Source of the DNA: Acidobacteriota bacterium
GTDB taxonomy: Bacteria; Acidobacteriota; Thermoanaerobaculia; Multivoradales; Multivoraceae
DNA: 64,000 bases
Assembly: GCA_039026915.1 (NCBI GenBank)
Contig: JBCCLJ010000005.1
Coordinates: 9,654 to 73,653, forward strand
Direction: 5' to 3'
Below, piece after piece: positions 37,596 to 51,837 of the stretch; position 1 is the stretch's first letter; the number at the start of each line of letters is the position of its first letter. The notes under the pieces were generated by a model that searched no databases, was not told the origin of the DNA, and saw only the letters and a program-made list of their open reading frames with translations. The position numbers were made by a program, and so were the translations under genes.

Positions 37596-37717
37596 GACGT
37601 CGGGCCGGGTGTTCGGGAGGCGGTTCGTGAGTCTTCTGTGAACTATCTCGCGGATGCTCTTTTCCAGCACCCATCTCCAGCGAGCTCGTTCACCAGAGGG
37701 CATTCGAAGTGAGAATC

Positions 37718-39001
37718 ATGCCAGCGATGCACACACGCTATCTCAGCCTCCTCCTCGCCAGCTGCTGCCTCGCAGGGCTGGCAGCGGATCCGATCGCAGC
37801 TCAGTCCGTTGCGACGTGCGAAGCCTCCGACCAGACCCACTGTCTGATGGAGCGTTTCGAAGTGACCGTCGAGTGGCGCGACTTTCGCGGGAACACCGGC
37901 TCTGCTCGCACCGTACCGGGAGCATCGGACGACTCCGGACTCTTTTACTTCTTTGCTCCGGAAAATTTCGAGATGCTGGTGAAGGTTTTGGACGGCTGCT
38001 TCCTGACGAACCGCGTCTGGGTCTTCGCCGCCGCGACGACCGACGTCGAGTACACGCTGCGCGTGCGCGACGTCGGCACGGGCGAGACGGCCTCCTACTT
38101 CAATCCGCTGGGCCGCGCCGCGCCGGCGATCACAGACATCGAGGCGTTGGACTCCTGCTCGCTCCTGCCTTCGGCCCGGCTCGCCTCAGCTCTGCGCACG
38201 CCTGTGCCCGGGAACGTCGTCGTCACCGAGCCTCTGCAGGTCCTCGAGCGCTCGGGCCGGGAGATCCCGAAGGCTTGCAGCGAGACGCCTGACGCTCTGT
38301 GTCTGACCCGTGGCCGCTTTCGGGTCGAGGTCGAATGGACCGACTTTCAGGGAGGCTCCGGAGTCGGCAGCGTGGTGCCTCTCGATTCGAGCGACTCCGG
38401 CCTCTTCTGGTTCTTCGACGCCGACAACTGGGAGATGCTGGTCAAGGTCATCGACGGCTGTGCGCTGAATCAGAGGTTCTGGGTCTTCGCCGCCGCGACG
38501 ACTAACGTCGAGTACCTGCTGCGTGTGACCGACACCGACACCAACACCGTGCGTGAGTACCGCAATCCGCTCGGGCGTGCCGCGCCAGCAACGACCGACA
38601 CCGATGCGTTTGCGACGTGCCCCGCCGGCGGGGGGGGTGCTTCTTCAGCGCCCGTGATCACGGGCGGTCGGCTCTTTCAGCGGAACTCTTCGACAGAGTT
38701 CGAGATCGACTTCACCGACGCGGACGGCGACATGAGCGAGCGGGCCGGCTACGAGGTCAGAGCAAGCGCTCCGGGCCTCTCCTGCAGTTTCAGCACGCTC
38801 GGTGACGACACTCCCGACGATCGCCTCGATCGCCTCGATCGCGGCACGATCGAGGTCGAGCTGGAGGGCGGCGGTTTGATCATTCCCGGGGCGCGGGTGA
38901 CCTTCCAAGTCGAAGATGCGGCGGGGAACCTGAGCAACGTCTTCGTCTTCACGAATCTCCTTCGCCCGTTCGAGTGCCCGGGCTCGCTCTCCGACTTCTA
39001 G
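37718..39001 (+). CDS. secreted protein with two tandem copies of an uncharacterised ~115-aa four-Cys domain
   Basis: Signal peptide (start GTG 37709, ATG 37718 or ATG 37727). Copy 1 is 37817..38157, copy 2 is 38276..38620. The shared core is RF.V.VEW.DF.G..G....VP...SDSGLF.FF...N.EMLVKV.DGC.L....WVFAAATT.VEY.LRV.D........Y.NPLGRAAPA.TD. Distinct C-terminal ~125 aa. Confidence 0.7.
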   Translation: MPAMHTRYLSLLLASCCLAGLAADPIAAQSVATCEASDQTHCLMERFEVTVEWRDFRGNTGSARTVPGASDDSGLFYFFAPENFEMLVKVLDGCFLTNRVWVFAAATTDVEYTLRVRDVGTGETASYFNPLGRAAPAITDIEALDSCSLLPSARLASALRTPVPGNVVVTEPLQVLERSGREIPKACSETPDALCLTRGRFRVEVEWTDFQGGSGVGSVVPLDSSDSGLFWFFDADNWEMLVKVIDGCALNQRFWVFAAATTNVEYLLRVTDTDTNTVREYRNPLGRAAPATTDTDAFATCPAGGGGASSAPVITGGRLFQRNSSTEFEIDFTDADGDMSERAGYEVRASAPGLSCSFSTLGDDTPDDRLDRLDRGTIEVELEGGGLIIPGARVTFQVEDAAGNLSNVFVFTNLLRPFECPGSLSDF

Positions 39002-39333: not shown

Positions 39334-42300
39334 ATGTTCCTTGCCCGCCCCTTGCTTTTGCTGTGCCTTCTCGGTCTCCTGCTGGCGCCTTCAGCAGCGC
39401 AGTCTCAACCCGAGGCCGATGTCCTCGTCACCAACGCCCCGCAGGCCCTCCTGGGCGAGTCGATCGAGCTGCAGCTCGATTTTTCGAACGTAGCGGCGGA
39501 CAGTCAGGATGTCGGCTACGGACCCTTCGTCGACGTCGTTCTGCCGATCAACGGAGCGGACGGCAATGCGGGCAGCGAGACGGCGGACGGACTGACCTTC
39601 GTGAGCGCCGACTACCTCGGCGCCGCCATCTCCGCTACACAGCTCACCTTTCCGGACGATGGTCGGGACACCGGTTGCGTCGAGCATCCCTTTGCCGAGT
39701 CCGACACGGCCACTCCGCTGATCGTCTGCGGCACGCCGGGCGACGTGCTCCTGGTTCTGCCGCTTCCTTTCGGCTCTTACGTGCCCACTCAGCCGGCGTC
39801 GACGATCGACCTGAAGCTCGACGTCAGCGCGCTCGCGGATCTCGGGGTGGGACTACCGGTCCATCATCGAGCCGGTTTCCGGTTCGGTGCGGATCCGCTC
39901 GACAACGCCTGCTGCGACCCGAGCCTGGTCAGTGCCGCTTCGAACGATTCGACGACCTGGCCCTCGACTGAGGTGACCCCGGAGCTCCTGGCCGTTCGCA
40001 AGGAGTACCTCGGCCCCGAGAACGAGACTTCGACCGGGCCGAACTTCCCGCGTCAGTACCGCATCGTTCTCGATCTCGCCGACGGCCAGAGCATCTCCGA
40101 CGTCGACGTCATCGAGGACTTGCCGGACAGCCTCGCTTACCTGCGTCTGGTGTCGACCTCGCCCACGGCGACCGTGCTGGCCGAGCCGACCGTGGGAGAG
40201 GCGAGCTCCTCGCCGACCAACCGTCTGCACGTCAATTTCTCCTCCGTCACCGGCACCGCATCGAACAACGACGCCGAGGTGGTTCTCGAGTTCTTCGTGC
40301 CGCGAACGGACGCGACCGGCAGCGCGGTCGTGCCAGCGGCCAGCGGCGACGACACGACAGCAGAGAACCAGGTCACGGCTCTCGGAGACTGGTCGCCCGT
40401 GGACGGCAGGGACCCGTCGGGCACCGACAACGTCTCGTTCGACGCCAGTGGTCCCGAGCACACGCTGTCGCAGCAGGCCCTCTCGATTCAGAAGGGCGTA
40501 GCGATCGCCGCGAACAGCGGTGCGTCCAGTGCGACACCGGGCGACGTGCTCGAGTACACCCTCGAGATTCAGGTCTCGGACTTCTTCGCGGTGAGCTCCG
40601 TCGTCGTCACCGACGTGCTCTCCGACGGCCAGTCGTTCGATCAGAGCTTCACACCGACGCTCCGCCTCACCGAGCACGGCTCGACGACGAGCGCGGGTTT
40701 CGATGCAGCGAACTTCACAGTCAGCGCCGACAAGTCACCCGGAGCCAGTGCACCGAACACCGGCCGGACCACGCTGACCTTCGACCTTTCCAGCGAGCTC
40801 GTGACGAGGGGCGCCGACGCTCTCTTTCTTGGCGGTTGTGTGCCCGTCGGTGGGACCGGCGGCACTCCTCCGGACTGCTCGACTTTCGATCAGGGAGCGA
40901 CAACGGCGACGGTCGTCTTCCGAGCGGTCATCGACGAGGACTTCTCCGACGACTTCCCGTCAGGCGACGCTTCCGTCGATCAGGGCGATTCGCTGAGCAA
41001 CGATGCCGTCGTCGATTCGGCGCTGCACGACGTGGTCGAGCTGCAGGCCACCGCGGCCACGGAAGCCGACGACACCGCCGCCGGAGTCAAGCTCGTCTTC
41101 GGCTCGATCAGCAAGTCGATCTATGCGATCGACGGCAACACGAGCTTCGCTCAGCCGATCGAGATCAGCCCGGGAGACGAGATCACCTACCGGCTCGAGG
41201 TCACGATGCCATCGGCGGACTTCGAGAACCTGGTCCTCAGCGACTACCTGCCGCTTCCTGTCTTCTCGGCCCCGGAGGTCACCCAGCTGCTTTCCCAGGC
41301 CGACGCCACCGTGCCCGCCGCCGGCACGATCAAGTTCGGCGCCACGGATACGCTCCTCGCTCTCGCCGGCGCCCCGAGCTGGAGCGTTCAGGCGGCCTCG
41401 AACCGCCTGGTTCTCGACTACGGCGACTTCGATGCGGTGGGCAGCGGTCCGGTCAAGATCGACGTGCTCTTCACGGTCACCGTCAGCGACGATCCGTTTG
41501 CCGACGACCTGCTGCTGACGAACCAGATGCACCTGGAGCAGGCGAGCACCAACGGCGGCGTGCACGTCGCCGACGCGATCGTCCAGTTTCGTCTGCGTCA
41601 GCCCCTGCTGCGCTTCACCAAGGGCGCGATCTCTTCCGACCAGCCGGACGCCACATTCACCCCGTCGGTCGTCGGGCCGAGCCTCGTCGGGACCGTCTCC
41701 TCGGACGACCTCGCCGCGACCCCTGTCGGCTCGGACGTCGCCGACGTCGATGCCGGCGACCTCGTCACCTTTGCGCTGGTCGTCGAGAACGTGGGCGGCA
41801 GCGGCGCCTTCGATCTCGTCGTCAACGACGCTTTGCCTGCCGGGCTCACTGTTCCTGCGGGCGGTATCGACCTGACCGTCCGTCGGGGCGACGGCTTGAT
41901 CTTGCAGACGAGTGCTCTGGGGCCCTTTGGCGATGATCGTGACCTCTTCGAAAACGGCCTCGAGATCGTCGACCCTTCCGGCGAAGCAGCCTGCCAGGAG
42001 TACTCGGCGAGCGGCGGTTCCAACGTCGTGCTGTTGACCTACGAGCTCGAGGTCGCCGACGCCGCGGCCGTGCCGGAAGCCGTCTTCGAAAATGACGCCG
42101 GTCTTCTGCAATACGGCGGCGACGACGGCTCGGGAAGCAGCGCCAATCACGTCTTCGGGACGACGGAGTTCCGCGACAGCGTCTCGATTGAGATCGCGAC
42201 TCCCCAGATCGAGAAGGACCTGACGCTCACCAGCGAGCCCCACACTCCGGACTCGGACCCCGGTCGGCCTCTTGCGATTGGCGAGGCCGCGACCTACCGC

Positions 42301-45300
42301 ATCGTCGTCACGGTTCCCGAGGGTGTCTCTCCCCAGGTGAAGCTCACCGATCAGGTCAGCAGCGGAGTGCGTATCGAGAGCGTCGACCAGGTGACGGCGA
42401 CCCCAGGACTCTCGACGTCCGTTGCCGGTGGCTTCGGCGCCGTCCGCACGGGTGCCGTCGTCTCCGGGGATGGACGCGGCGTGACCCTCGATTTCGGTGA
42501 CCTCACCAATGCCAATCGAGCCAACGGCACCGCCGATACCATCAGCGTCTACGCGACGGTGCGCGTTCAGAACGATCCCGAGGCCTCCTCCGGCACGGCC
42601 GTCACCAACTCGGCCACGTGGAGCTGGGACGGCGGTCAGGTTGGCGACTCAGCCCAGCAGGCTCTGGTCGTGGAGCCGGCGCTCGAGATGAGCAAGGACG
42701 TCAGCCCAGGCAACGGCGATGCGGGCGACACCGTGTCCTTCACGCTGACGGTGACACACGCTGGCGCTTCGACGGCGGACGCCTTCGACCTCGTCCTCAC
42801 AGACGCACTCTCGGATCCCGATCTCGCGCTGGTCGACGGCACGGTTTCGGCGCCGGGAGGTACGGTCGTCCGCGGCAATGGCGGGGAAGGCGATGTCGAG
42901 GTGCGCTACGACAGCCTTGCCCTTGCCGGCTCTGCCATCGTCACCTTCGACGCCGTCTTGCTGAACTCCGTCGTCGCAGGTGACATTCTGACCAACGTTG
43001 CCGAGCTCTCTTGGGACAGCCTCCCGGGCGAGGTCGCCGAGCGCAAGTACGGCCCGACGAGTGCCGGTGCTCAGGTGACGATCGGCATTCCGGATCTGTC
43101 GAAATCGGTGCTGTCGACGTCAGAGACCTCGACCGATGCTGCGCAGTACTCGCCGACGGTCGAAGACCTCACTCTCGGGGAAGAGGTCACCTTCCGGATC
43201 GTGGCGACGCTCCCCGAGGGCGTGACGGCGCAGGTGTTGATCGTCGATTCGATGCCGTCCTCCGCCAGCGGCGTTCTCGAAGCGATCTCTGCGCAGGTCA
43301 TCAGCGTCGGCGGCTCACTGACGCCCGCGGTGCCCAGCCCCACGCCGTCGTTCTCGGACGTGAACCTCGGCGACGGTCTCGACGATCGAGTGAGCTTCGA
43401 CTTCGGCCAGGTGACGAATGCGCCAGACGGCGTCGTCAGCGCTGGCGACCAGATCGTTCTGGAGATCGTGGCTCGGGTCGCCGACGTCGCGGCGAACCGC
43501 GGCGGTCGAGCTCTGACGAATACGGCCCTGATCGACTTCGACGGAGCGCTGCAGCCGACGGCCACGGTCGATGTCGAAGTGGTCGAGCCGCTCCTCGAGG
43601 TCGACAAGTCCGGTGATGAGACGACCGGTGACGCCGGTGACATCGTGCGTTTCGTGGTCGAAGTGCGGCACGACCCGGCGACCTCGGCACGCGCCTTCGA
43701 CGTGCTCATCGAGGATGAGCTGCCGCCGGGGCTGAGCTTCTACGGCAATCTGCAGAGCACCGGTACGGCCGAGCCCAGCACGCTCTCAGAAGCGAGCAAC
43801 ACGGTGACCGCCGTCTGGGACGAGCTGGACGTCGGTGAGGTCGGTCGCTTCGAGTTCGACGCCATCGTCGATCTGGGGGTTTTTCCCGGCGAGAACCTGA
43901 CCAACGAGGCCATGCTGAGCTGGGATTCGCTGCCCGCGGACGACGATCCGCCGGGCGAGCGCACGGGCTCTGACAGTGATGAGCACGTCTTCACGGTGAC
44001 GCTGCCCGGCGTCGACAAAACGGTCTTCTCGACCTCCGAGAGCTTCACCGGTACCGCCCAGAGTGGGCCGGAGCCGGATCTCACGATCGGTGAGCAGGTG
44101 ACCTATCGAGTCGTTCTGACTCTGCCGGAAGGCACGGTCACCGACACGACGATCGTCGATCAGCTGCCCAAGGGCTCCGCCGTTCTCGCGCTCGAGAGCT
44201 CGCGGGTCGTGCGGGTTGGTACCGCGCTCGGCGGCGCCGGTCTTCCCTCTGTCGGCGCTGCGGGAACGGCGTCGGATACCGATGCAGATGGCGTCGACGA
44301 CCGCGTCCAGTGGACTCTGGGCACCGTCGTCAACACCCCGGATGGCTCCGAGAACGCCCAGGACGAGATCGAGGTCGAGGTCGTGGCCCGGGTCATCGAC
44401 GTCGCCGCCAATTCCTACGGTGACGACGATCTGGTGAACCTCGCGACGCTCTCGCACGCCGACGGCAGCGCCATGGACTCAGCTCTGGTCGACGTGGTCG
44501 AGCCTCAGCTCCAGATCACGAAGTCAGCCAGTTCGACTCTGGTCGACGCTGGCGACACGATCCGCTTCGACCTCCAGATCGATCACATCTCGGCGTCGAG
44601 CGCCGACGCCTTCTCGCTCGTCGTCGTCGACGCACTGCCGAGCTCCGGGCTGTCCTGGGCCGGCAACGGCACGGTCGTTTCGGACTGCGACGGCCTGGTC
44701 GTCGACTCCACCAGTCTGCCGACGGTTCGCTTCGACGTCAGCGAGCTGACGAGAGCCGACGAGACCTGCACCATTTCCTACGACCTCGATGTGGAGAACA
44801 CGGTGCAGCCGGCGCAGTCCTACGACAACACCGCGTCTCTCGACTACGACTCCCAGCCGACCTACGTCGCCGGCGAGACACGTCGGAGGACGACGAGCGA
44901 CATGGAGACCGTGACGATCCTCGCCCCGGGCCTGATGAAGATCACCGACACCACGAGCCTCGACGACACCGGGATGACGCAGTTCGGCGCCTCGCGTCCC
45001 GACCTGGCGATCGGCGAGCAGGTCGACTACGAGCTCACCGTCGTCTTTCCGGAAGGCGTGACCGAGAACGCGGTGGTCACCGACCTGATGCCCGCAGATT
45101 CCCAGACCGGCATCGTCGAGGTCATCGGCGCTTCGGTCTCGTCGATCGGCGGTCAGCTGGTCGCGACCGGCTCGGGATCGCCGGTGCTCAGTGACACGCG
45201 CCTCGACGACGGTCTCAACGACACGGTCACCTTCGACTTCGGTCGGGTCACCAACACCCCCGACGGTTCCAACACGCCCGCCGATCGGATCGTCCTGACG

Positions 45301-48300
45301 GTGACCGGTGTGGTCGTCGATCTGCCCGAGAACGTTGCCGGAGACGTCCTGTCGAACTACGCCGAGCTCGCCTTCGCCACCGGCGGTCCGCTGTCCGATA
45401 CGGCCGAGATCGACGTCGTCGAGCCGGAGCTGGAGCTCGGCAAGTCCATGGGACCGATGGCGGCGCATCGAATCCCGATCTCGCTCTCCGTCGAGAACAC
45501 CGGGTCTGCACCCGCCTACGAAGTGAGGGTGGAAGACGTGCTCGATGACTCGCTCTACGATCTCGACTCCTTTGCTTCGATCGCCGCGCCGACCGGCTTC
45601 GTGCTCGAAGCTCTGGACGAAGGAAGTCAGCTGCGCATCGTTCTGCGTGCCGATCCGGCCTCGAGCTCACCCGACAACGTGATCCTTCCGGGTGAGACGG
45701 TCTCGGCGGACTTCGAGATCGACGCGCTGCGCGGCGCGTCGTCGCCTTCGGCGCTCCCCAATGTGGCCGACGAAGTCGGCGCGACGACCCTTCCGGGGAC
45801 GGATCCGAAGGAGCGCGATGCTTCGGGAAGCACGGTCAGCGTGACGCTCGATCTGCCGATCCTCGAGTCCGACAAGACAGCCTCGCTGCTCGCCGACGCG
45901 GACAACTCGGGCACGGTCTCGCCGGGAGACACGGTGCGCTACGAAGTGGCGTTGACGAACTCGGGCGCCGGCGCGGCCACGGACCTCGTGCTGCAGGACA
46001 CTCCTGACGCCAACACGTCGCTCGTCATCGGCACGGTGGTCGTCGGCGGCTCGGAGGTCGTCGTCTCGGGCAACGGGGCCGGCGACGTCGACGTTCATGT
46101 CACCCTCGCGTCCTTGGCGGCGGGACAGACCTCGACCGTGCAGTACGACGTCGTCGTGGCGCCTGCCCTCGCAGCGGGCATCGAGACGGTCACGAACCAG
46201 GGTGTCTGGACGAGCACGGAAGTCGACCCCGTGGCGACCGATGACCCGTCGGTCCCGGGCTTCGCGGATGCGACGATCGTGCCGGTCGACGCTGCACCGG
46301 ATCTCGGGGTCAGCAAGACCGACGGCGACGAAGACGCGATTCCCACGGGCTTGTTGACCTATCAGGTCACGTACGCGAACGGCGGCAATCAGGACGCCAC
46401 CGGTGTCACGGTCACGGAGACGGTGCCCGACCACTCGATCTATCTCGCGCCGAACAGCAACTACGCATGGTCATGCCCGGACGGCAGCACTGCCGGAACG
46501 CAGTGTGTTGCCAACGTCGGCTCGCTGGCAGCGGGTGCCGGCGGCTCGTTCACCTTCGCTGTCCGGGTCGTCGACCCGCTTCCGGGCGGCGTCACGGCAC
46601 TCGCCAACACCGTGACGATCCAGGACGACGGCTCCAACGGCGACGATCTCGACCTGTCCGACAACCAGGGCTCCGACACCACGCCGATCAACGCCTCGCC
46701 GGGCTTGACGCTGACCAAGTCGGACGGCGATGCGGTCGCCCTCTTCGGTTCGCCGGTCGTCTACACCCTCAGCTACAGCAACGACGGCAACCAGGTCGCT
46801 CAAGGCGTCGTGCTCACCGAAACGGTGCCGGCCGACACGATCTTCGACGCCGCGGCCAGCGCGCCTTCGTCGTGGAGCTGCGGTGATGCCAGCTCCGCCG
46901 GCACGGAGTGCACTCTCTCGCTGGGGCAGTTGGCGGTCGGTGCGAGCGGATCGGAGACGTTCGCGGTGCGCACCTTGGCCTCCGCGGGCGAGGGCGGTCT
47001 TGTGCAGAACACCGCCACGATCCGCGATGACGGCAGCGGTGCTTCGGGGCAGCCCGTCACGGAGAGCGCCAGCGACACGACGCCAGTGCGTGCTCCGACC
47101 CTCACCAAGACGCTGCTGACGTCCGGCGATCTCGTCATCGGACAGGAAGCGATTCTGCGGATCGAGGTCGGCCTGCCCGAAGGAGCCAGCGCCAGCGGCG
47201 TCACGCTGGTGGATGCGCTGCCTCTCGAGCTGCTGGCCGTGCGCCAGGAGAACGGCAGCGCCAGTGCGGGCCTCACCTACTCGGGCTCGCTGGCGGCCGA
47301 CATCGAGTCCGACAGCTTCACCTGGACCCTGGGTGACGTCAGCAACACCGACGGCGACAGCGGGACTCAGGAGAGTTTCGTCTTCGATGTCGTCGTCCAG
47401 GCGAGAAACGTGCTGACGGCGCAGGCGGGCACGATGCTGACGACGACCGCGACGCTCACGTTCGGCGGTCAGACGCGGGACGCTTCGGTCGATCTGAGCA
47501 TCCTCGAGCCCGATCTTTCGCTCGACACATCTTTCGACCAGCTCACGTCCGGGCCCGGTGAGACGGTCACCGTTCGTTGGGAGATCGCGCACACGCAGGC
47601 GAGTGGTGCCTCGGCCCACGATCTGGAGCTGGTGACCGTTCTTCCGGAGGGCCTCACCTACGCGGGCGGCGTCACAGCAGAGCAGGGGCCAGCGCCGACG
47701 GTCGATGCCACGGGCCTGCCCGAGCTGCGCATGACGGTGGCGGAGCTCGAGCAGAACTGGGACGAGTCCAACCCTCTGGTCATCACCTTCGACGTCACCA
47801 CGTCAGGCAGCCTGACCACGCGAGAGACCGTCGACAGCGAAGTGCGGCTCGAGTGGTCCAGCATCGTCGGCGTCCCGGCGTTGCCGGTTCCCGACGATCC
47901 CGCGTCCGGAGAGCGCACCGGCGACAGCGGAGATCCCGGTGGTGCGGCCAACGACTATGTGGCCGAGTCGACCTCGCAGCTCAACAACACCGCGGTCTTT
48001 TCCTTCGAGGATCTGCGAGAAGACGAGACGCTGTCGAACGACTTCGACTACAACGACTTCGTCATCACCGTTGGCGTCACCGAGGAGGTGAATGAGGAGA
48101 ACGAGTGGACCCGCATCGAACTCCTCGTCCGGGCGGAGGCGCGTGGAGCGGCGTTCAATCACGAGCCCTTTCTCGACGTCGGGCTCGAAGGGCCGATCGA
48201 CATTACGCTCGAGACCTACGACGCCGCCGGCGTCCTGACAGGGATCAGTCAGAGCTCGCAGAACGCCACGTTCGTCGAGTCGATCCCGATCTTTGCGGAC

Positions 48301-51300
48301 TCCTACACGGCGCTGCCTTCGTGGCAGGGCGGTTCGTTTCCGTTCACCTCGAATACCGACGCCGCGCAGACTTCGGCCAACCGCGTCGACGGTCTCACGA
48401 CCCGCGTGATCCTCGAGGTTGGAGATCCCAGTCTCAACCCGCGGGTCGTCGACGATCCAGAGACGCTGCATCTCGACGAGGCGACCAATCACCTTCTGGG
48501 CCCGTGGATTCGGGTGCTCAACACCGGACAGGAGATCTACCAGCGTTGGCGCCACCGCGGCGCGACGCAGGATCTCGTGACGGCGGAGCTCTACGGCTCG
48601 AGCACGCCGCTCCTCGGCTTCGGACTCGATCAGGCGACGATCTTCGAGGCGGCGTGGTCGTGGCCGGTCGAGCAGGAGCCGATCTGGGACGCGTATCCCG
48701 AGTTCGTCGACTACACCTACTCCGGATCGACCTCTTTCACCGACTGGTTCGACAGTCCCGCGAGCGGTTTGACCTGGCCGGTGAGCGGCGCCAACCTGGC
48801 GACGCTGCGTCAGGGATCGACGGTGACGTTGCCCCAGGGTTCCTTCGCCTTTACGCACGTCTTCGACTCGCCGCTCAACAGCGCCCCCGCAGTCGCCGAT
48901 CTCGATCGAGACGGCAGCTACGAGGTGGTTGTCGGCTCCTTCCTCAACTGGATCGCCGTACACGGCGCCGACGGAGCGCTGCAGACGCTGATCGATCCGG
49001 CACCGGGGCAGGATCTGTCGTCGGTGTCGTCGGTCGTGGTTGCCGATCTGCTCGGCGACGCGTCGCTCGAGATTCTTCGCGGCTATGACGATGGCGTGAT
49101 TCGCGTCTTCGATGCGAGCGGCGATGAACTGCAGACCTTCCAGCTCGACGGCACCGTCAAGTCGACCCCCGTCGTCGGTGACGTCGACGGCAACGGCAGC
49201 CGTGAACTCTTCGTTCTGGGCGGCGACGCCCGTCTCTACGGTTTCTCGTCGACCGGTGCCCCTCTGCCGGGCTTTCCGCTGGCGGTCGGCGGGCCGGAGG
49301 ACGTTTCGAACAACTGGGTGATCATGCCGTCACCGCTTCTGGCGAACGTCGACGAGTCAGGCTCGCTGGAGGTCGTCGCGGTAACCGCGTCCGGGCGGGT
49401 GCACGTGGTCGGCCTCGATGGGCAATCCCTGCCGGGATGGCCCGTCGATCTCGAGCGGACGGTCCTAGCCTCGCCGGCCGCGGCGAATCTCGATGGATCG
49501 GGCGGTCTCGAGATCGTCATTGCTGACGACCAGGGCGGAGTGACGGCGCTGGGTTCGACCGGGGTCGTCGTCTGGGAGAGTCAGCGCAGCTTGGGAGGCC
49601 CCTCCTCGCCGGCGGTGGGCGATCTCGAAGGCGACGGCTCGCTGGAAGTGGTCGTCGGTTCGATGGATGGCCGGATCTACGCGTACGCCGCCGACGGTTC
49701 CGAGAAGAGCGGTTGGCCGGTGACCACCGCCTCTCAGGTGCAGAGCTCGCCTTCGCTGGTCGACTTCGACGATGACGGCGACGACGAGGTCTTCGTCGGC
49801 TCGTTCGACACCCGCCTCTACGGTCTCGACGGCGACGGCTCCGCTCTGCCGCTCTCCGGTGGAGGGACCTTTCCGGTGGCTCTCGGTGCGGTGCTCGTCT
49901 CCAGCCCCGCGGTGGTCGATCTGCAGGGCGACGGCACGCCCGAGATCGTCGTCGGCTCCTACGACCGCAATCTCTACGCGGTGGAGGCAGGCGGTAGCGT
50001 GCGTCCTCTCGCCAACCTTTGGGGCCAGTTCCGGGGCTCCGCCACGAACCAGGGTACGGCGTCCGAGAGCTTCGTGGAACTCGCCGATCTGAGCGTCGCG
50101 GTGGACGACAACGTCGACTCGGTCGTTGCGGGAACGCAGCTCAACTGGACGGTGCTCGCCCAGAACGCGGGTCCGGACGACGTGCTCGGCGCGACGCTCC
50201 AGGCGACCGTCTCGCCGGAGCTGAGCGGCCTCAGCTGGTCCTGCTCGTCGGCGCTCGGCGCCTGCGGCACCGCCAACGGCAGCGGCGCGCCGGACCTCTC
50301 GCTCGATCTTCCCAGCGGCGCTTCGGCGACGATCACAGTGCAGGCGACGGTGGCCTCTTCGGCCACGGGCACGGTGCCCTTCAGCGCGTCGATCGGTGTG
50401 CCTGCCGGCTTCGCCGACTCGGCGACGGGCAACAACGAGTCCGCCGAGTCGACGCCGGTCGAGCTCGTTGCCGACGTCGGTGTCACGATCAGCGACCGCT
50501 CGAGCTACTACGCACCTGGTAGCCGTCTGCGCTACACGGTCGCCGTATCGAATGACGGCCCCTCGGACGCTTCTGGTACGGCGCTTCAGGTCGCCCTGCC
50601 CGAGGAGTTGAGCTCTGTCTCCTGGACTTGCAGTGCGGGCGGTGGAGCCAGCTGCGCTGCGAGCGGCAGCGGTGCCCCCGATCTGACGCTCGATCTTCCT
50701 GAGGGCGCGCTGGCGGTCTTCTCGGTCTCCGGCGATGTCGATCCCGACGCCGTCGGTGTGCTGACGGCGTCGGCGACGGTCTCCGTCGCTACCGGAATCA
50801 GCGATCCGGTCAGCTCCAACGACGTCGCTTTCGACGAGTCGTCGGCAACGACGCAGAACGACGCCCCCACGGTCGAAACGGTGACCTCACTCTCGGACGA
50901 CGTTCTCGAAGCGTGCCGCGCATCGACCGAACCACTGCAGGGCCTGAGGCTCCTTTTCTCCGAGCCGATGCGCAACAGCGGCGGATCGACTTCGGTCGGC
51001 GACCTCGACAATCCTCAGTCCTACCTGCTGGTGAGCAGCGGCGCGGATCGGGATCTTCAGACCGTCGACTGCGCCGGACCGGCGGGCGACGATCAAGAGG
51101 TGGCGCTGAGCGCAGTCTACGCCGGTGCTGGGTCCACGTCGGTCTCGTTGGAGGTCGACGACCTCGGTCTGCTCGACGGCGCGTATCGGCTGTTTGCCTG
51201 CTCGACGCTCGAGGACCAGGACGGGACGGTGATCGACGGTGACGGTGACGGCTTCGGAGGTGATTCGTTCCGGTTCGATCTTCGAGTCGACTCCGGCAAC

Positions 51301-51837
51301 CTGGTGACGGACGGTCACTTCGACTGCGACCTCGGAGGGTGGCAGGTCGAGGCACCCCCTTCAGAGCTCATCTTCGACGCCACGACCGATGCTGATGACG
51401 CTCAGATCTCGGGCTCGGCTGCGGTCGTCGATCTGACGGGGGCGCCCGACTACACCCTCTCGCGGTGTCTGCCGGTCGAGGGTGCGGAAGGTGTGGCACT
51501 GAGGGTCAGGACTCTGACCGACGCACCGGCCGGTGTCGCCGTCGATCTGAAGATCGGCTGCGAGGTCTTCTCGGACGCGTCCTGCTCGGGCTCGCCCCTG
51601 CTGGAGTACGAGGACCGGATCGAGCTGACGGATTCGTCGGGAGCCTGGAACCACCTGGCGCTGACGGCGCCGTCTCTCGAAGACGCCCTCTCGGCACGAT
51701 GCGCCGTCGCCGTCGAGCAGAAGCAGGGCTTCGGCTTCGAGGTCCGTTTCGATCAGCTGTTCCTTCAGCAGGGCATCTTCGAGAACGGCTTCGAGAAGGG
51801 AATGCTCGGCTGGAGCGAGAAGGCCGACGGTCCCTGA
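39334..51837 (+). CDS. giant (4167 aa) secreted repeat protein: DUF11-type/Ig-like repeats, LruC-like domain, FG-GAP beta-propeller, C-terminal jelly-roll-like domain
   Basis: One uninterrupted ORF. Signal peptide MFLARPLLLLCLLGLLLAPSAAQS. Five alternating module pairs (..IGE.VTYR.V.TLPEGV.. then VVEP.L...K..). More DUF11-like units follow (e.g. DLGVSKTDGD...YQVTYANGGNQDATGVTVTETVP). NDFDYNDFVITV block at 48037. Seven DxDxDG...E.VVGS blades at 48880..50060. Confidence 0.9.
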   Translation: MFLARPLLLLCLLGLLLAPSAAQSQPEADVLVTNAPQALLGESIELQLDFSNVAADSQDVGYGPFVDVVLPINGADGNAGSETADGLTFVSADYLGAAISATQLTFPDDGRDTGCVEHPFAESDTATPLIVCGTPGDVLLVLPLPFGSYVPTQPASTIDLKLDVSALADLGVGLPVHHRAGFRFGADPLDNACCDPSLVSAASNDSTTWPSTEVTPELLAVRKEYLGPENETSTGPNFPRQYRIVLDLADGQSISDVDVIEDLPDSLAYLRLVSTSPTATVLAEPTVGEASSSPTNRLHVNFSSVTGTASNNDAEVVLEFFVPRTDATGSAVVPAASGDDTTAENQVTALGDWSPVDGRDPSGTDNVSFDASGPEHTLSQQALSIQKGVAIAANSGASSATPGDVLEYTLEIQVSDFFAVSSVVVTDVLSDGQSFDQSFTPTLRLTEHGSTTSAGFDAANFTVSADKSPGASAPNTGRTTLTFDLSSELVTRGADALFLGGCVPVGGTGGTPPDCSTFDQGATTATVVFRAVIDEDFSDDFPSGDASVDQGDSLSNDAVVDSALHDVVELQATAATEADDTAAGVKLVFGSISKSIYAIDGNTSFAQPIEISPGDEITYRLEVTMPSADFENLVLSDYLPLPVFSAPEVTQLLSQADATVPAAGTIKFGATDTLLALAGAPSWSVQAASNRLVLDYGDFDAVGSGPVKIDVLFTVTVSDDPFADDLLLTNQMHLEQASTNGGVHVADAIVQFRLRQPLLRFTKGAISSDQPDATFTPSVVGPSLVGTVSSDDLAATPVGSDVADVDAGDLVTFALVVENVGGSGAFDLVVNDALPAGLTVPAGGIDLTVRRGDGLILQTSALGPFGDDRDLFENGLEIVDPSGEAACQEYSASGGSNVVLLTYELEVADAAAVPEAVFENDAGLLQYGGDDGSGSSANHVFGTTEFRDSVSIEIATPQIEKDLTLTSEPHTPDSDPGRPLAIGEAATYRIVVTVPEGVSPQVKLTDQVSSGVRIESVDQVTATPGLSTSVAGGFGAVRTGAVVSGDGRGVTLDFGDLTNANRANGTADTISVYATVRVQNDPEASSGTAVTNSATWSWDGGQVGDSAQQALVVEPALEMSKDVSPGNGDAGDTVSFTLTVTHAGASTADAFDLVLTDALSDPDLALVDGTVSAPGGTVVRGNGGEGDVEVRYDSLALAGSAIVTFDAVLLNSVVAGDILTNVAELSWDSLPGEVAERKYGPTSAGAQVTIGIPDLSKSVLSTSETSTDAAQYSPTVEDLTLGEEVTFRIVATLPEGVTAQVLIVDSMPSSASGVLEAISAQVISVGGSLTPAVPSPTPSFSDVNLGDGLDDRVSFDFGQVTNAPDGVVSAGDQIVLEIVARVADVAANRGGRALTNTALIDFDGALQPTATVDVEVVEPLLEVDKSGDETTGDAGDIVRFVVEVRHDPATSARAFDVLIEDELPPGLSFYGNLQSTGTAEPSTLSEASNTVTAVWDELDVGEVGRFEFDAIVDLGVFPGENLTNEAMLSWDSLPADDDPPGERTGSDSDEHVFTVTLPGVDKTVFSTSESFTGTAQSGPEPDLTIGEQVTYRVVLTLPEGTVTDTTIVDQLPKGSAVLALESSRVVRVGTALGGAGLPSVGAAGTASDTDADGVDDRVQWTLGTVVNTPDGSENAQDEIEVEVVARVIDVAANSYGDDDLVNLATLSHADGSAMDSALVDVVEPQLQITKSASSTLVDAGDTIRFDLQIDHISASSADAFSLVVVDALPSSGLSWAGNGTVVSDCDGLVVDSTSLPTVRFDVSELTRADETCTISYDLDVENTVQPAQSYDNTASLDYDSQPTYVAGETRRRTTSDMETVTILAPGLMKITDTTSLDDTGMTQFGASRPDLAIGEQVDYELTVVFPEGVTENAVVTDLMPADSQTGIVEVIGASVSSIGGQLVATGSGSPVLSDTRLDDGLNDTVTFDFGRVTNTPDGSNTPADRIVLTVTGVVVDLPENVAGDVLSNYAELAFATGGPLSDTAEIDVVEPELELGKSMGPMAAHRIPISLSVENTGSAPAYEVRVEDVLDDSLYDLDSFASIAAPTGFVLEALDEGSQLRIVLRADPASSSPDNVILPGETVSADFEIDALRGASSPSALPNVADEVGATTLPGTDPKERDASGSTVSVTLDLPILESDKTASLLADADNSGTVSPGDTVRYEVALTNSGAGAATDLVLQDTPDANTSLVIGTVVVGGSEVVVSGNGAGDVDVHVTLASLAAGQTSTVQYDVVVAPALAAGIETVTNQGVWTSTEVDPVATDDPSVPGFADATIVPVDAAPDLGVSKTDGDEDAIPTGLLTYQVTYANGGNQDATGVTVTETVPDHSIYLAPNSNYAWSCPDGSTAGTQCVANVGSLAAGAGGSFTFAVRVVDPLPGGVTALANTVTIQDDGSNGDDLDLSDNQGSDTTPINASPGLTLTKSDGDAVALFGSPVVYTLSYSNDGNQVAQGVVLTETVPADTIFDAAASAPSSWSCGDASSAGTECTLSLGQLAVGASGSETFAVRTLASAGEGGLVQNTATIRDDGSGASGQPVTESASDTTPVRAPTLTKTLLTSGDLVIGQEAILRIEVGLPEGASASGVTLVDALPLELLAVRQENGSASAGLTYSGSLAADIESDSFTWTLGDVSNTDGDSGTQESFVFDVVVQARNVLTAQAGTMLTTTATLTFGGQTRDASVDLSILEPDLSLDTSFDQLTSGPGETVTVRWEIAHTQASGASAHDLELVTVLPEGLTYAGGVTAEQGPAPTVDATGLPELRMTVAELEQNWDESNPLVITFDVTTSGSLTTRETVDSEVRLEWSSIVGVPALPVPDDPASGERTGDSGDPGGAANDYVAESTSQLNNTAVFSFEDLREDETLSNDFDYNDFVITVGVTEEVNEENEWTRIELLVRAEARGAAFNHEPFLDVGLEGPIDITLETYDAAGVLTGISQSSQNATFVESIPIFADSYTALPSWQGGSFPFTSNTDAAQTSANRVDGLTTRVILEVGDPSLNPRVVDDPETLHLDEATNHLLGPWIRVLNTGQEIYQRWRHRGATQDLVTAELYGSSTPLLGFGLDQATIFEAAWSWPVEQEPIWDAYPEFVDYTYSGSTSFTDWFDSPASGLTWPVSGANLATLRQGSTVTLPQGSFAFTHVFDSPLNSAPAVADLDRDGSYEVVVGSFLNWIAVHGADGALQTLIDPAPGQDLSSVSSVVVADLLGDASLEILRGYDDGVIRVFDASGDELQTFQLDGTVKSTPVVGDVDGNGSRELFVLGGDARLYGFSSTGAPLPGFPLAVGGPEDVSNNWVIMPSPLLANVDESGSLEVVAVTASGRVHVVGLDGQSLPGWPVDLERTVLASPAAANLDGSGGLEIVIADDQGGVTALGSTGVVVWESQRSLGGPSSPAVGDLEGDGSLEVVVGSMDGRIYAYAADGSEKSGWPVTTASQVQSSPSLVDFDDDGDDEVFVGSFDTRLYGLDGDGSALPLSGGGTFPVALGAVLVSSPAVVDLQGDGTPEIVVGSYDRNLYAVEAGGSVRPLANLWGQFRGSATNQGTASESFVELADLSVAVDDNVDSVVAGTQLNWTVLAQNAGPDDVLGATLQATVSPELSGLSWSCSSALGACGTANGSGAPDLSLDLPSGASATITVQATVASSATGTVPFSASIGVPAGFADSATGNNESAESTPVELVADVGVTISDRSSYYAPGSRLRYTVAVSNDGPSDASGTALQVALPEELSSVSWTCSAGGGASCAASGSGAPDLTLDLPEGALAVFSVSGDVDPDAVGVLTASATVSVATGISDPVSSNDVAFDESSATTQNDAPTVETVTSLSDDVLEACRASTEPLQGLRLLFSEPMRNSGGSTSVGDLDNPQSYLLVSSGADRDLQTVDCAGPAGDDQEVALSAVYAGAGSTSVSLEVDDLGLLDGAYRLFACSTLEDQDGTVIDGDGDGFGGDSFRFDLRVDSGNLVTDGHFDCDLGGWQVEAPPSELIFDATTDADDAQISGSAAVVDLTGAPDYTLSRCLPVEGAEGVALRVRTLTDAPAGVAVDLKIGCEVFSDASCSGSPLLEYEDRIELTDSSGAWNHLALTAPSLEDALSARCAVAVEQKQGFGFEVRFDQLFLQQGIFENGFEKGMLGWSEKADGP

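What the first reader, a model, noticed from the sequence alone, without database searches (positions are those of the whole stretch)
39334..51837. 12.5-kb single ORF encoding a 4167-aa acidic surface protein with no recognisable outer-membrane export or anchoring signal
The ORF is uninterrupted and starts with a classical Sec signal peptide. I see no RTX GGxGxD repeats, no LPXTG, no PEP-CTERM-like hydrophobic/basic tail, and no autotransporter beta-barrel. No obvious T9SS C-terminal domain, T1SS, T5SS or usher gene lies nearby. The protein ends ...QQGIFENGFEKGMLGWSEKADGP. The flanking genes are a secreted duplicated-domain protein (upstream, same strand) and a convergent esterase. How such a protein reaches or stays at the cell surface is unexplained by this window. 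The last ~180 aa (about 51300..51837: NLVTDGHFDCDLGGWQVE...) look like a CBM4/9-type jelly roll.
Basis: partly seen in the sequence, partly recalled or inferred. Interest (0 to 1): 0.6.

Follow-up and report, generated by a model that had tools for sequence, protein, structure and literature searches.

The report
Giant acidobacterial adhesin with orphan C-terminal tag
This is a real 4,167-residue stalk-like surface adhesin of an uncultured Acidobacteriota bacterium; where its relatives carry a membrane-anchor signal, it ends in a worn copy of a short peptide that also ends about 20 other exported proteins of the genome and looks like an undescribed sorting or anchoring tag.

Summary
The ORF (39334..51837, 4167 aa) is real. 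It has coding periodicity, no long DNA repeats, an identical copy in a second assembly, and a collinear 48%-identical ortholog. It is a Sec-exported fibrillar adhesin: a three-Ig head, about 15 isopeptide-type (DUF11/CLIPPER, RrgB-D2) stalk domains, an LruC domain, an FG-GAP propeller, two more DUF11 domains and a jelly-roll-like end.

I found no LPXTG, PEP/IPTL-CTERM tail, T9SS CTD, RTX repeats or autotransporter barrel.

The terminal "GFE.G...W" peptide is not random. In this genome 19 of 23 such motifs lie within 15 residues of a stop codon. They sit on unrelated Sec- or Tat-exported proteins. Counts in the 61 class genomes searched are 88, 77, 60, 23, 20, 8, 6, 1, 1, and none in the other 52.

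Homologous adhesins carry TM-type tails, sortase fusions or dockerins in the same slot. The ortholog carries a canonical tag.

Caveat: a profile built without the giant's own tail scores that tail at only 11 bits, so it is a degenerate copy. No partner machinery was found; a cohesin-bearing secretin and C25 peptidases were tested and did not track the tag.

This scan had already flagged the same tag in other Acidobacteriota genomes. I found no paper, Pfam or NCBIfam model for it.

The parts
39334..39402 (+). Sec-type signal peptide (aa 1-23, MFLARPLLLLCLLGLLLAPSAA|QSQ)
   Evidence: Read from the translation. There is no lipobox and no Tat motif. Homologs begin with comparable signal peptides.
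39403..40488 (+). Conserved N-terminal head of three Ig-like beta-sandwich domains (aa 24-~385)
   Evidence: No Pfam hit. The head is conserved at 32-52% identity in 90 of 119 homologs. The AlphaFold2 model has pLDDT 87.3 and pTM 0.80. Foldseek matches integrin alpha leg domains, AgI/II C-terminal domains (3opu, 5dza, 4ofq), the GBS80 pilin and SdrG.
40492..47943 (+). Stalk of about 15 alternating isopeptide-type Ig-like domains (DUF11/CLIPPER, DUF7507, DUF7619, RrgB_K2N D2), aa ~387-2870
   Evidence: PF01345 scores 249.8 bits in 10 stretches, TIGR01451 203 bits and TIGR04226 160 bits. Fifteen of the 31 lysines sit 130-200 aa apart in the context h-x-h-x-K-[STDG] at domain starts.
48034..48750 (+). 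LruC domain / DUF4842 (aa 2901-3139)
   Evidence: NCBIfam TIGR04456 scores 47.4 bits (cut-off 36). Pfam PF16130 and PF13448 also hit.
48883..50001 (+). FG-GAP / VCBS-type beta-propeller (aa 3184-3556)
   Evidence: PF13517, PF25292 and PF13570 hit this stretch.
50083..50829 (+). Two further DUF11/CLIPPER (CARDB-like) domains (aa 3584-3832)
   Evidence: PF01345 hits 3714-3832 and PF07705/PF01345 hit 3584-3703.
50869..51297 (+). Unassigned beta-rich spacer with a Ca-type DGDGDG loop (aa ~3846-3988)
   Evidence: No Pfam hit. It is conserved in ortholog P0003 and in the metagenomic fragment P0193.
51298..51771 (+). Jelly-roll-like last domain (aa 3989-4146): starts NLVTDGHFDCDLGGW, ends VRFDQLFLQQ
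   Evidence: No Pfam or NCBIfam hit. AlphaFold predicts eight strands at pLDDT 56-81. The domain is homologous to P0003, P0193 and P0161. It has the same start and end pattern as motif-initiated repeats in other proteins.
51772..51834 (+). Terminal 21-aa peptide GIFENGFEKGMLGWSEKADGP: a diverged copy of the hFxDGFESGD(L/T)SxWSxxxP C-terminal tag
   Evidence: It keeps the family's invariant F, E, G and W. The homologous position in P0003 is a canonical tag scoring 35.3 bits. A profile built without this tail scores it at only 11.3 bits, E about 1 genome-wide.
37709..39001 (+). Upstream secreted 430-aa protein with a duplicated Cys-containing domain; link to the giant gene unproven
   Evidence: No Pfam hit. 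The same domain ends Calx-beta proteins that lie next to two other tagged genes, on contigs C221 and C217. The gene is not conserved next to ortholog P0003.

Best explanation
The gene encodes a fibrillar adhesin of about 425 kDa. The protein is exported to the periplasm by Sec (inferred from the signal peptide). Its long stalk of Ig-like domains is probably stabilised by intramolecular isopeptide bonds (inferred from family membership and the lysine pattern). The stalk carries a three-Ig head at the N-terminus and an LruC/propeller/jelly-roll module near the C-terminus.

Its delivery beyond the periplasm, or its retention on the cell, is most likely governed by the last ~21 residues. These are a diverged member of a short, TM-less C-terminal tag with consensus hFxDGFESGD(L/T)SxWSxxxP-stop. 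In this genome and in a patchy set of related Acidobacteriota, the tag ends many unrelated Sec- or Tat-exported proteins.

I read the tag as an address or anchoring peptide that is read after inner-membrane export by a dedicated, still unidentified partner. It would be the functional counterpart of the IPTL-CTERM-like tails, sortase signals or dockerins that occupy the same position in homologous adhesins.

What is shown: the protein's architecture; the positional specificity, cargo diversity and patchy distribution of the tag; and the slot equivalence.

What is inferred: that the tag sorts or anchors, that this worn copy still works, and every step of the pathway.
For: Architecture. DUF11 is the CLIPPER isopeptide stalk domain of fibrillar adhesins (PMC12617251).

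Positional specificity of the tag.
- 19 of 23 motif occurrences in ORFs of at least 150 aa end within 15 aa of a stop.
- Five hits outside the profile's training set (C129, C339, C375, C318, C38; the weakest, C38, only 11.2 bits at E 1.2) all lie 0-3 aa from a stop.
- 17 of 20 sampled hits in six other genomes are followed by a stop within 0-7 aa.

Cargo.
- The tagged proteins are unrelated: M12B proteases, a C25 peptidase, GH44, DUF1501, a dihaem peroxidase-like protein, GSDH, FG-GAP and beta-helix proteins.
- They carry Sec signals, or twin-arginine (Tat) signals on the two DUF1501 proteins. So the tag is read after export.
- Short Pro/Gly linkers precede the tag.

Distribution.
- Counts in the 61 class genomes are 88, 77, 60, 23, 20, 8, 6, 1, 1, and 0 in 52 others, including all 6 genomes of the sister genus. 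This is the pattern expected of a cargo set tied to an accessory system.

Slot equivalence.
- By a regular-expression sort of their last residues, at least 82 of 119 homologs (about 70%) end in TM+basic tails, sortase domains or dockerin-like or other recurrent terminal motifs.
- The two class relatives with this adhesin (G311, G331) end in IPALG/IPMLG + hydrophobic helix + LRR tails and have 1 and 0 tags genome-wide.
- A paralog in this genome has a Pfam IPTL-CTERM hit at 22.1 bits.
- Ortholog P0003 carries a canonical tag (35.3 bits, E 3.5e-8) aligned to the giant's tail.
Against: - A profile built without the giant's own tail scores that tail at only 11.3 bits, E about 1 over 67,138 ORFs. 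The tail is not recovered genome-wide at E<=10. The 35.6 bits were circular, because the tail was in the alignment.
- The tail has lost the consensus S and D and has a one-residue deletion, so it may be decaying.
- Among the best 150 matches worldwide, the motif is mostly internal or N-terminal (296 and 35 occurrences against 21 C-terminal). There it is the first strand of repeated jelly-roll-like domains. It is therefore not intrinsically a terminal signal.
- No partner was found. The cohesin on the T2SS-type secretin occurs in tagless genomes and is missing from the most tag-rich one. C25/PorU-like peptidases occur in about 25 tagless genomes. There is no PorV.
- There is no experimental evidence on localisation or processing of any tagged protein.
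- Tandem tags in some metagenomic proteins fit a binding module better than a cleaved signal.
Confidence: 0.5

Rival explanations
1. The terminal peptide is a non-covalent docking module (beta-strand or hairpin complementation, dockerin-like), not a secretion or sorting signal. It would tie exported proteins to a jelly-roll/ConA-like receptor domain or to one another. Outer-membrane passage would happen by a general route such as the T2SS-type machine.
For: - The motif matches the first strand of repeated jelly-roll-like domains in hundreds of other proteins.
- Some metagenomic proteins end in two or three tandem tags (P0181, P0176, P0196, P0142), as binding repeats do.
- Four adhesin homologs carry dockerin-like ends in the same slot.
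- The genome has two secretins.
Against: - No receptor was identified.
- The one candidate docking module tested, the cohesin-like end of the secretin at contig C7 63480-65984, does not co-occur with the tag.
- This genome has almost no internal copies of the motif (4 of 23). Orphan jelly rolls lacking a first strand were not looked for.
Confidence: 0.22
2. In this particular protein the tail is a decaying relic and has no role. The adhesin would be released into the medium, or held by something else: its own domains binding the envelope, or a partner such as the upstream duplicated-domain protein.
For: - The leave-one-out score is only 11.3 bits.
- Identity to the ortholog's tag is 8 of 21 residues, no higher than in the neighbouring domain, which is 36-38% identical.
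- The upstream protein's domain recurs beside two other tagged genes.
Against: - The eight conserved residues are exactly the family's key positions (I, F, G, F, E, G, L, W). The four invariant columns F, E, G and W are all kept.
- Another tagged protein (contig C4) has the same one-residue deletion.
- The peptide still ends the protein 7 residues after the W, as in the family.
- The upstream gene is not conserved next to the ortholog.
Confidence: 0.2
3. The ORF, or its end, is an assembly or annotation artefact: a collapsed repeat, a chimeric join, or a truncated gene whose true C-terminal anchor lies elsewhere.
Against: - There are no long or near-identical DNA repeats in the ORF.
- GC and GC3 are uniform along it.
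- An identical sequence with the same downstream genes is present in a second assembly.
- The 3932-aa ortholog is collinear and ends at the same point with the same kind of peptide.
- A convergent gene starts 10 bp after the stop.
Confidence: 0.03

Closest known systems
DUF11/CLIPPER fibrillar adhesins (e.g. Acinetobacter silvestris B9T28_05395; PDB 9IFR; PMC12617251)
   Same: Signal peptide, an N-terminal adhesive head, a long tandem stalk of DUF11/CLIPPER and related CnaA-like Ig domains with a lysine at the start of each domain, giant size, and occurrence in a Gram-negative bacterium.
   Different: The characterised example ends in an OmpA-like anchoring domain, and most homologs end in TM-type sorting tails or sortase modules. 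This protein has none of these. Instead it adds LruC, propeller and jelly-roll modules plus the short tag.
T9SS C-terminal domain (Por_Secre_tail, TIGR04183) with PorU/PorV
   Same: A C-terminal signal without a TM helix, on many unrelated Sec-exported hydrolases and adhesins of one genome. A C25-family peptidase that itself bears the signal is also present (contig C35).
   Different: The T9SS CTD is a folded Ig-like domain of 70-100 aa; this tag is about 20 aa. There is no CTD model hit and no PorV. The PorU model matches only the generic C25 domain, at 179 bits against a cut-off of 420. C25 homologs do not track the tag.
PEP-CTERM/exosortase, IPTL-CTERM, GlyGly-CTERM/rhombosortase and LPXTG/sortase signals
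   Same: A short conserved motif at the extreme C-terminus of a genome-specific, patchily distributed set of exported proteins. It occupies the same slot in homologous adhesins.
   Different: All of those are tripartite: a motif, a hydrophobic helix and a basic end. This tag has no hydrophobic segment and is acidic, so it cannot be held in the inner membrane for a transpeptidase of that kind.
Dockerin-cohesin and other terminal docking modules
   Same: A small terminal module appended by a linker to diverse secreted enzymes. Some adhesin homologs carry dockerin-like ends, and tandem copies of the tag exist in other organisms.
   Different: The tag has no EF-hand-type Ca loops. The only cohesin-like module tested does not co-occur with it.
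T1SS giant RTX adhesins (LapA, SiiE, MpIBP)
   Same: Giant, acidic, repetitive Ig-like stalk adhesins of Gram-negative bacteria.
   Different: Those lack Sec signal peptides and carry RTX repeats and a T1SS C-terminal signal. This protein has a Sec signal and no RTX repeats, and the genome has no HlyB-type exporter above the cut-off.

Membership tests
DUF11/CLIPPER isopeptide-domain fibrillar adhesin | Multiple PF01345/TIGR01451 domains above the curated cut-off | tested here: met
   PF01345 scores 249.8 bits (cut-off 24.6) in 10 stretches. TIGR01451 scores 203 bits and TIGR04226 160 bits.
DUF11/CLIPPER isopeptide-domain fibrillar adhesin | Conserved first-strand lysine available for a Lys-Asn/Asp isopeptide bond in each domain | tested here: met
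   Fifteen of 31 lysines lie in the context h-x-h-x-K-[STDG], 130-200 aa apart. K223 and K387 are invariant in 22 homologs. Bond formation itself cannot be tested with these tools.
DUF11/CLIPPER isopeptide-domain fibrillar adhesin | N-terminal signal peptide and adhesive head | tested here: met
   The signal peptide is seen by inspection. The head model has pLDDT 87 and resembles MSCRAMM, AgI/II and integrin-leg Ig domains. The ligand is unknown.
T9SS cargo (type A/B CTD) | C-terminal Por_Secre_tail domain, plus PorV/PorU/SprA in the genome | tested here: not met
   There is no CTD hit in the last 367 aa at E<=1. There is no PorV. PorU-model hits are below the cut-off. The SprA search was uninformative because its controls were silent.
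PEP-CTERM / IPTL-CTERM / LPXTG tripartite sorting signals | Motif followed by a hydrophobic helix and a basic cluster at the C-terminus | tested here: not met
   The tail ...GIFENGFEKGMLGWSEKADGP has no hydrophobic stretch, and no PF18203 or related hit. By contrast, the paralog on contig C35 hits PF18203 at 22.1 bits.
T1SS RTX adhesin | No Sec signal, RTX GGxGxD repeats, HlyB/HlyD/TolC exporter | tested here: not met
   A Sec signal is present, there is no RTX model hit, and no HlyB-type match reaches the cut-off.
T5SS autotransporter / two-partner secretion | C-terminal beta-barrel or N-terminal TPS domain | tested here: not met
   No such Pfam or NCBIfam hits anywhere in the protein.
hFxDGFESGD(L/T)SxWS C-terminal tag (undescribed; operational definition) | Significant match to a tail profile built without the sequence itself | tested here: inconclusive
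   The tail scores 11.3 bits, E about 1 over 67,138 ORFs. The invariant F, E, G and W are kept. The ortholog's tail at the same position scores 35.3 bits.
hFxDGFESGD(L/T)SxWS C-terminal tag (undescribed; operational definition) | Motif ends within about 15 residues of the stop, on a protein with an N-terminal export signal, in a genome with many such proteins | tested here: met
   The W lies 7 residues before the stop. A Sec signal is present. About 20 tagged ORFs occur in the genome.
CBM4_9 / ConA-like jelly roll (last domain) | Match to a family model or a confident fold | tested here: inconclusive
   There is no Pfam hit at E<=1. The AlphaFold model is all-beta but of low confidence. Only the start and end motifs are similar.

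The most novel reading that the evidence does not exclude
The ~20-residue acidic, TM-less peptide hFxDGFESGD(L/T)SxWSxxxP-stop is the address label of a previously undescribed protein-sorting or surface-attachment pathway of diderm Acidobacteriota. It would act on both Sec and Tat substrates after inner-membrane export, and this 425-kDa adhesin would be one of its cargoes. The label would have been recruited from the first strand of a ConA-like jelly roll, which hints at recognition by strand complementation.
Probability: 0.35. Interest if true: 0.8.

Novelty: new variant of a known kind. Interest (0 to 1): 0.58.

Why it matters
Acidobacteriota are abundant in soils and sediments, yet almost nothing is known about how they display enzymes and adhesins on their surface.

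All established short C-terminal sorting signals (LPXTG, PEP-CTERM, GlyGly-CTERM, PGF-CTERM) depend on a membrane helix. The only TM-less one, the T9SS CTD, is a folded domain.

A 20-residue TM-less tag shared by dozens of Sec and Tat substrates per genome would point to a new recognition principle. It would also give a simple way to predict the surface or secreted proteome of these uncultured bacteria.

For the adhesin family itself, it shows that the anchor slot is exchangeable between relatives: TM tail, sortase, dockerin or tag.

Tried and rejected
1. Rejected. It is present in all 14 genomes of the order, including 8 tagless ones, and absent from G163, which has 88 tags.

2. C25/PorU-like peptidases as the tag-processing enzyme. 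They are present in all 7 tag-rich genomes and absent from the 6 tagless sister-genus genomes, but they also occur in about 25 tagless genomes. The best hits to the C53-type query are in tagless genomes. The C65/G163-type subfamily is also found in tagless G258, G319 and G301. They are not discriminating.

3. T9SS. There is no PorV. The SprA search was uninformative because its controls were silent.

4. T1SS. Only generic ABC exporters are present.

5. Neighbourhoods of the tagged genes.
- In this genome, the only recurrences are AMP-binding enzymes (probably chance), the DUF1501 partner gene and the upstream-protein domain.
- Tag-dense clusters in G163 and G267 showed no shared non-cargo gene.

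6. Synteny with ortholog P0003. None.

7. AlphaFold of the last 328 aa with a two-sequence alignment. It was too poor to use, with pLDDT 40.

8. Word-based protein searches with a tag tail and with the C-terminal 328 aa. Each returned only the query itself.

9. Literature searches for the motif and for Acidobacteriota sorting signals. Nothing relevant was found.

The genome holding P0003 could not be searched.

11. My own first score for the giant's tail (35.6 bits) was circular, and I withdrew it after the leave-one-out test.
Full report
**1. The observation**

The ORF 39334..51837 (+) is uninterrupted and gives 4167 residues. The ATG is the first start codon, eight codons after the upstream in-frame stop. 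GC is 0.67/0.50/0.84 at codon positions 1/2/3 and even along the gene.

Direct DNA repeats inside the ORF are short (at most 40 nt) and diverged (at most 75% identical). The repeated protein domains are therefore old, and a collapsed repeat is unlikely.

A second public assembly (GCA_038748275.1) has a contig that starts inside the gene. It encodes an identical 4078-residue stretch followed by the same downstream genes. A 3932-residue protein from another MAG (P0003, GCA_041156725.1) aligns collinearly: 48% identity over residues 21-2517, 43% over 2201-3709 and 36% over the last 460.

The genome is a 7.4-Mb, 450-contig MAG, estimated 95% complete and 0.5% contaminated. A fragment of the same protein cluster is named 'Acidobacteriota bacterium' by NCBI.

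**2. What the protein is**

After a Sec-type signal peptide comes a head of about 360 residues with no Pfam hit. This head is the most conserved part of the family: 90 of 119 homologs cover at least 75% of it at 32-52% identity.

With a 22-sequence alignment, AlphaFold2 gives a confident model (pLDDT 87.3, pTM 0.80) of three beta-sandwich domains. Foldseek matches integrin alpha leg domains, the C-terminal domains of streptococcal antigen I/II adhesins, the GBS80 pilin and SdrG. E-values run from 1e-10 to 1e-5. TM-scores are low (0.2-0.33), as expected for multi-domain models.

The stalk follows, from about residue 387 to 2870. It carries DUF11 (PF01345, 249.8 bits, 10 stretches), DUF7507, DUF7619, TIGR01451 (203 bits) and the isopeptide-forming fimbrial D2 domain TIGR04226 (160 bits).

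DUF11 was recently renamed CLIPPER. It was shown by crystallography to be a CnaA-like domain with an intramolecular isopeptide bond, and it forms stalks of fibrillar adhesins in Gram-negative bacteria (PMC12617251).

The protein has only 31 lysines (0.7%). Fifteen of them sit 130-200 residues apart in the same context, hydrophobic-x-hydrophobic-x-K-[STDG], at domain starts. This fits first-strand isopeptide lysines.

Downstream of the stalk come:
- an LruC domain (TIGR04456, 47.4 bits, residues 2901-3139);
- an FG-GAP propeller (3184-3556);
- two more DUF11 domains (3584-3832);
- an unassigned beta-rich segment;
- a last domain of about 160 residues.

The mature protein is about 425 kDa with pI 4.05.

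**3. No known sorting signal**

No RTX, LPXTG, PEP-CTERM, IPTL-CTERM, T9SS CTD or autotransporter model hits the protein. The last 367 residues hit nothing at E<=1.

In the genome I found:
- no PorV;
- only below-threshold C25-domain matches to the PorU model (179 bits against a cut-off of 420);
- two secretins;
- one weak exosortase-family match;
- one sortase;
- no HlyB-type exporter above the cut-off.

The SprA search was uninformative because its controls were silent.

**4. The terminal peptide is one of a family**

Of 23 occurrences, 19 end within 15 residues of a stop codon. One of these (contig C135) looks spurious.

The aligned tails give hFxDGFESGDLxxWSxxxP, with F, E, G and W invariant.

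The bearers are unrelated: two M12B metalloproteases, a C25 peptidase, GH44, two DUF1501 proteins, a dihaem peroxidase-like protein with Big/PKD domains, a glucose/sorbosone dehydrogenase, an FG-GAP protein, a beta-helix protein and several with no Pfam hit.

All complete tagged proteins have N-terminal export signals. The two DUF1501 proteins have twin-arginine signals. So the tag, if it is read at all, is read after Sec or Tat export. Short Pro/Gly linkers usually precede it.

A profile of 17 tails finds five further hits outside its training set (C129, C339, C375, C318, C38). All lie 0-3 residues from a stop, though the weakest (C38) scores only 11.2 bits at E 1.2.

**5. Distribution of the tag**

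With the tail profile, counts at E<=1e-4 in 61 genomes of the class are:

| Genome | Tags |
|---|---|
| G163 | 88 |
| G005 | 77 |
| G117 | 60 |
| G267 | 23 |
| this genome | 20 |
| G129 | 8 |
| G173 | 6 |
| two further genomes | 1 each |
| 52 others | 0 |

The 52 genomes with none include all six genomes of the sister genus in the same family.

In a 301-genome sample of the phylum, 20 genomes had any match, and most of those had a single one.

Of 20 hits sampled from six other genomes, 17 are followed by a stop within 0-7 residues, typically ...W-S-A-T-V-P-stop.

Neither Pfam nor NCBIfam (June 2026 release) has a model that hits the tails. I found no paper that mentions the motif in this sense.

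Two earlier follow-ups of this scan, on other Acidobacteriota genomes, reached the same reading of this tag. I treated them as leads and repeated the positional and distribution tests myself.

**6. A complication from the global search**

A profile search of 1.84 billion representative proteins found 2306 proteins at E<=1e-3. The ranking sums domain scores, so the top 150 are mostly multi-copy proteins. Their 352 motif occurrences split as 296 internal, 35 within the first 70 residues and 21 C-terminal.

In these proteins the motif starts a repeated domain of about 180-290 residues that ends ...Y-D-V-x-F-D-D-v. That makes it the first strand of a jelly-roll/ConA-like domain.

The giant's own last domain is of this kind. 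It starts NLVTDGHFDCDLGGW and ends VRFDQLFLQQ, and is then followed by the orphan tag.

Other proteins show the peptide as a free-standing module. It occurs after PT linkers, inserted in a loop of the homologous last domain (P0193, P0161), and in two or three tandem copies at C-termini (P0181, P0176, P0196, P0142).

So the tag looks like a first strand that has been recruited as an independent terminal module. This keeps a docking (strand-complementation) role in play beside a secretion-signal role.

**7. Slot equivalence**

The tails of 119 homologs were sorted by regular expressions on their last residues. Only some were checked against models, so the counts below are approximate:

| Type of ending | Homologs |
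|---|---|
| Fused sortase domain | 32 (33 with P0079; see below) |
| Short motif + hydrophobic helix + basic end (IPTL-like 25, other 8, LPXTG-like 4) | 37 |
| NRFxxEFL-type tail | 15 |
| xLPxxRR end | 9 |
| Dockerin-like | 4 |
| GFESGD-type tag (true case) | 1 (P0003) |
| Other or truncated | 20 |

P0003 is the only true tag. A second regex hit, P0079, is really a sortase fusion.

Some of the helix-containing tails weakly match Pfam IPTL-CTERM (15.7-18.7 bits, below the cut-off of 20.8), and others do not match at all.

Within the class, the adhesin head occurs in only 4 of 61 genomes. The copies in G311 and G331 (4100 and 3859 residues) end in ...VPAIPALG/VPIPMLG + hydrophobic helix + LRR. 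Those genomes have 1 and 0 tags.

This genome also has a DUF11 paralog on contig C35 that passes the Pfam IPTL-CTERM threshold at 22.1 bits.

Thus the same adhesin family uses a TM-type tail in genomes without the tag, and the tag in a tag-rich genome.

**8. How good is the giant's own tag?**

My first score (35.6 bits) was circular, because the giant's tail was in the alignment. A profile built from the 17 other tails scores the giant's last 40 residues at 11.3 bits, E about 1 for 67,138 ORFs. The protein is not recovered in a genome-wide search at E<=10.

The tail keeps I-F-x-N-G-F-E-x-G-x-L-x-W. It has K and M where the consensus has S and D, and one residue fewer between G and W, as in the tagged protein on contig C4.

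The ortholog's tail scores 35.3 bits (E 3.5e-8) and aligns to the giant's tail at the end of the homologous domain.

I conclude that the tail is a diverged descendant of a canonical tag. Whether it still works is open.

**9. Search for a partner**

I located it at contig C7 63480-65984 and tested co-occurrence. The module is present in all 14 genomes of the order, tagless ones included, and absent from G163. I rejected it.

C25 peptidases occur in all seven tag-rich genomes and in none of the six sister-genus genomes, but also in about 25 tagless genomes. Neither subfamily tracks the tag.

Neighbourhoods of the tagged genes gave no recurrent non-cargo gene, with one exception. The duplicated domain of the protein just upstream of the giant gene also ends Calx-beta proteins next to two other tagged genes. 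This is a weak lead, and the ortholog's locus does not share it.

**10. Verdict**

The gene is a genuine new member of the DUF11/CLIPPER fibrillar adhesins.

Its unexplained targeting is best explained by a short TM-less C-terminal tag. That tag is real, position-specific, cargo-diverse and patchily distributed in Acidobacteriota, and it is undescribed in the databases and literature I could search.

The giant's copy is degenerate, no machinery is known, and nothing has been tested at the bench.

I give 0.5 to the sorting/anchoring reading for this protein, 0.22 to a pure docking module, 0.2 to a functionless relic and 0.03 to an artefact.

Noticed in passing
window 37709-39001; own genome contigs C221 (L013:4631-8545, -) and C217 (L012:4-2918, -): The duplicated Cys-containing domain (~115-150 aa) of the secreted protein upstream of the giant gene has no Pfam hit. 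The same domain ends two Calx-beta repeat proteins that lie directly beside two other tag-bearing genes.
   Followed up: partly
own genome contig C35 (L004:7584-11615, -, and L004:4004-7615, -); contig C65 3926-8412: A DUF11 adhesin paralog with a Pfam IPTL-CTERM hit (22.1 bits) lies immediately upstream of a tag-bearing C25 peptidase. On C65, another C25 peptidase is convergent with a protein ending ...IPTAGTWGLILFGLLIAGVGVRFLRF. The sorting enzyme for IPTL-CTERM is, to my knowledge, unknown, so a C25 link may be worth testing.
   Followed up: partly
own genome contig C53 16309-24049: The genome's only sortase (PF04203, 81 bits) follows a 691-aa protein ending LPIGG + hydrophobic helix + RR. 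Two kilobases away is a PorU-like C25 peptidase (1141 aa) whose end, ...LIFETGFES..., weakly resembles the tag (14.6 bits).
   Followed up: no
own genome contigs C77 (L005:4001-5374) and C85 (L006:2208-3605): Two DUF1501 proteins with twin-arginine signals (SRRSFM, NRRQFL) carry the tag. Tat substrates are therefore among the cargo. Each is preceded by a homologous gene of about 590 aa.
   Followed up: partly
window 39334-51837: Lysine is strongly depleted: 31 in 4167 residues. About half of the lysines sit at the predicted isopeptide positions, which suggests selection against surface lysines.
   Followed up: partly
L035 (G117:C87:50443-50700): Two convergent genes both end in canonical tags, and their ends overlap by about 20 bases.
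   Followed up: no
proteins P0181, P0176, P0196, P0142, P0193, P0161 (metagenomic): Two or three tandem copies of the tag occur at C-termini. A copy of the tag is also inserted in a loop of the domain homologous to the giant's last domain.
   Followed up: partly
own genome contig C4 26642-28636 (L001:4004-5995, -): This tagged ORF has a signal-peptide-like segment, but no ATG, GTG or TTG in its first 120 codons. It may use an unusual start, or there may be a local sequence error.
   Followed up: no
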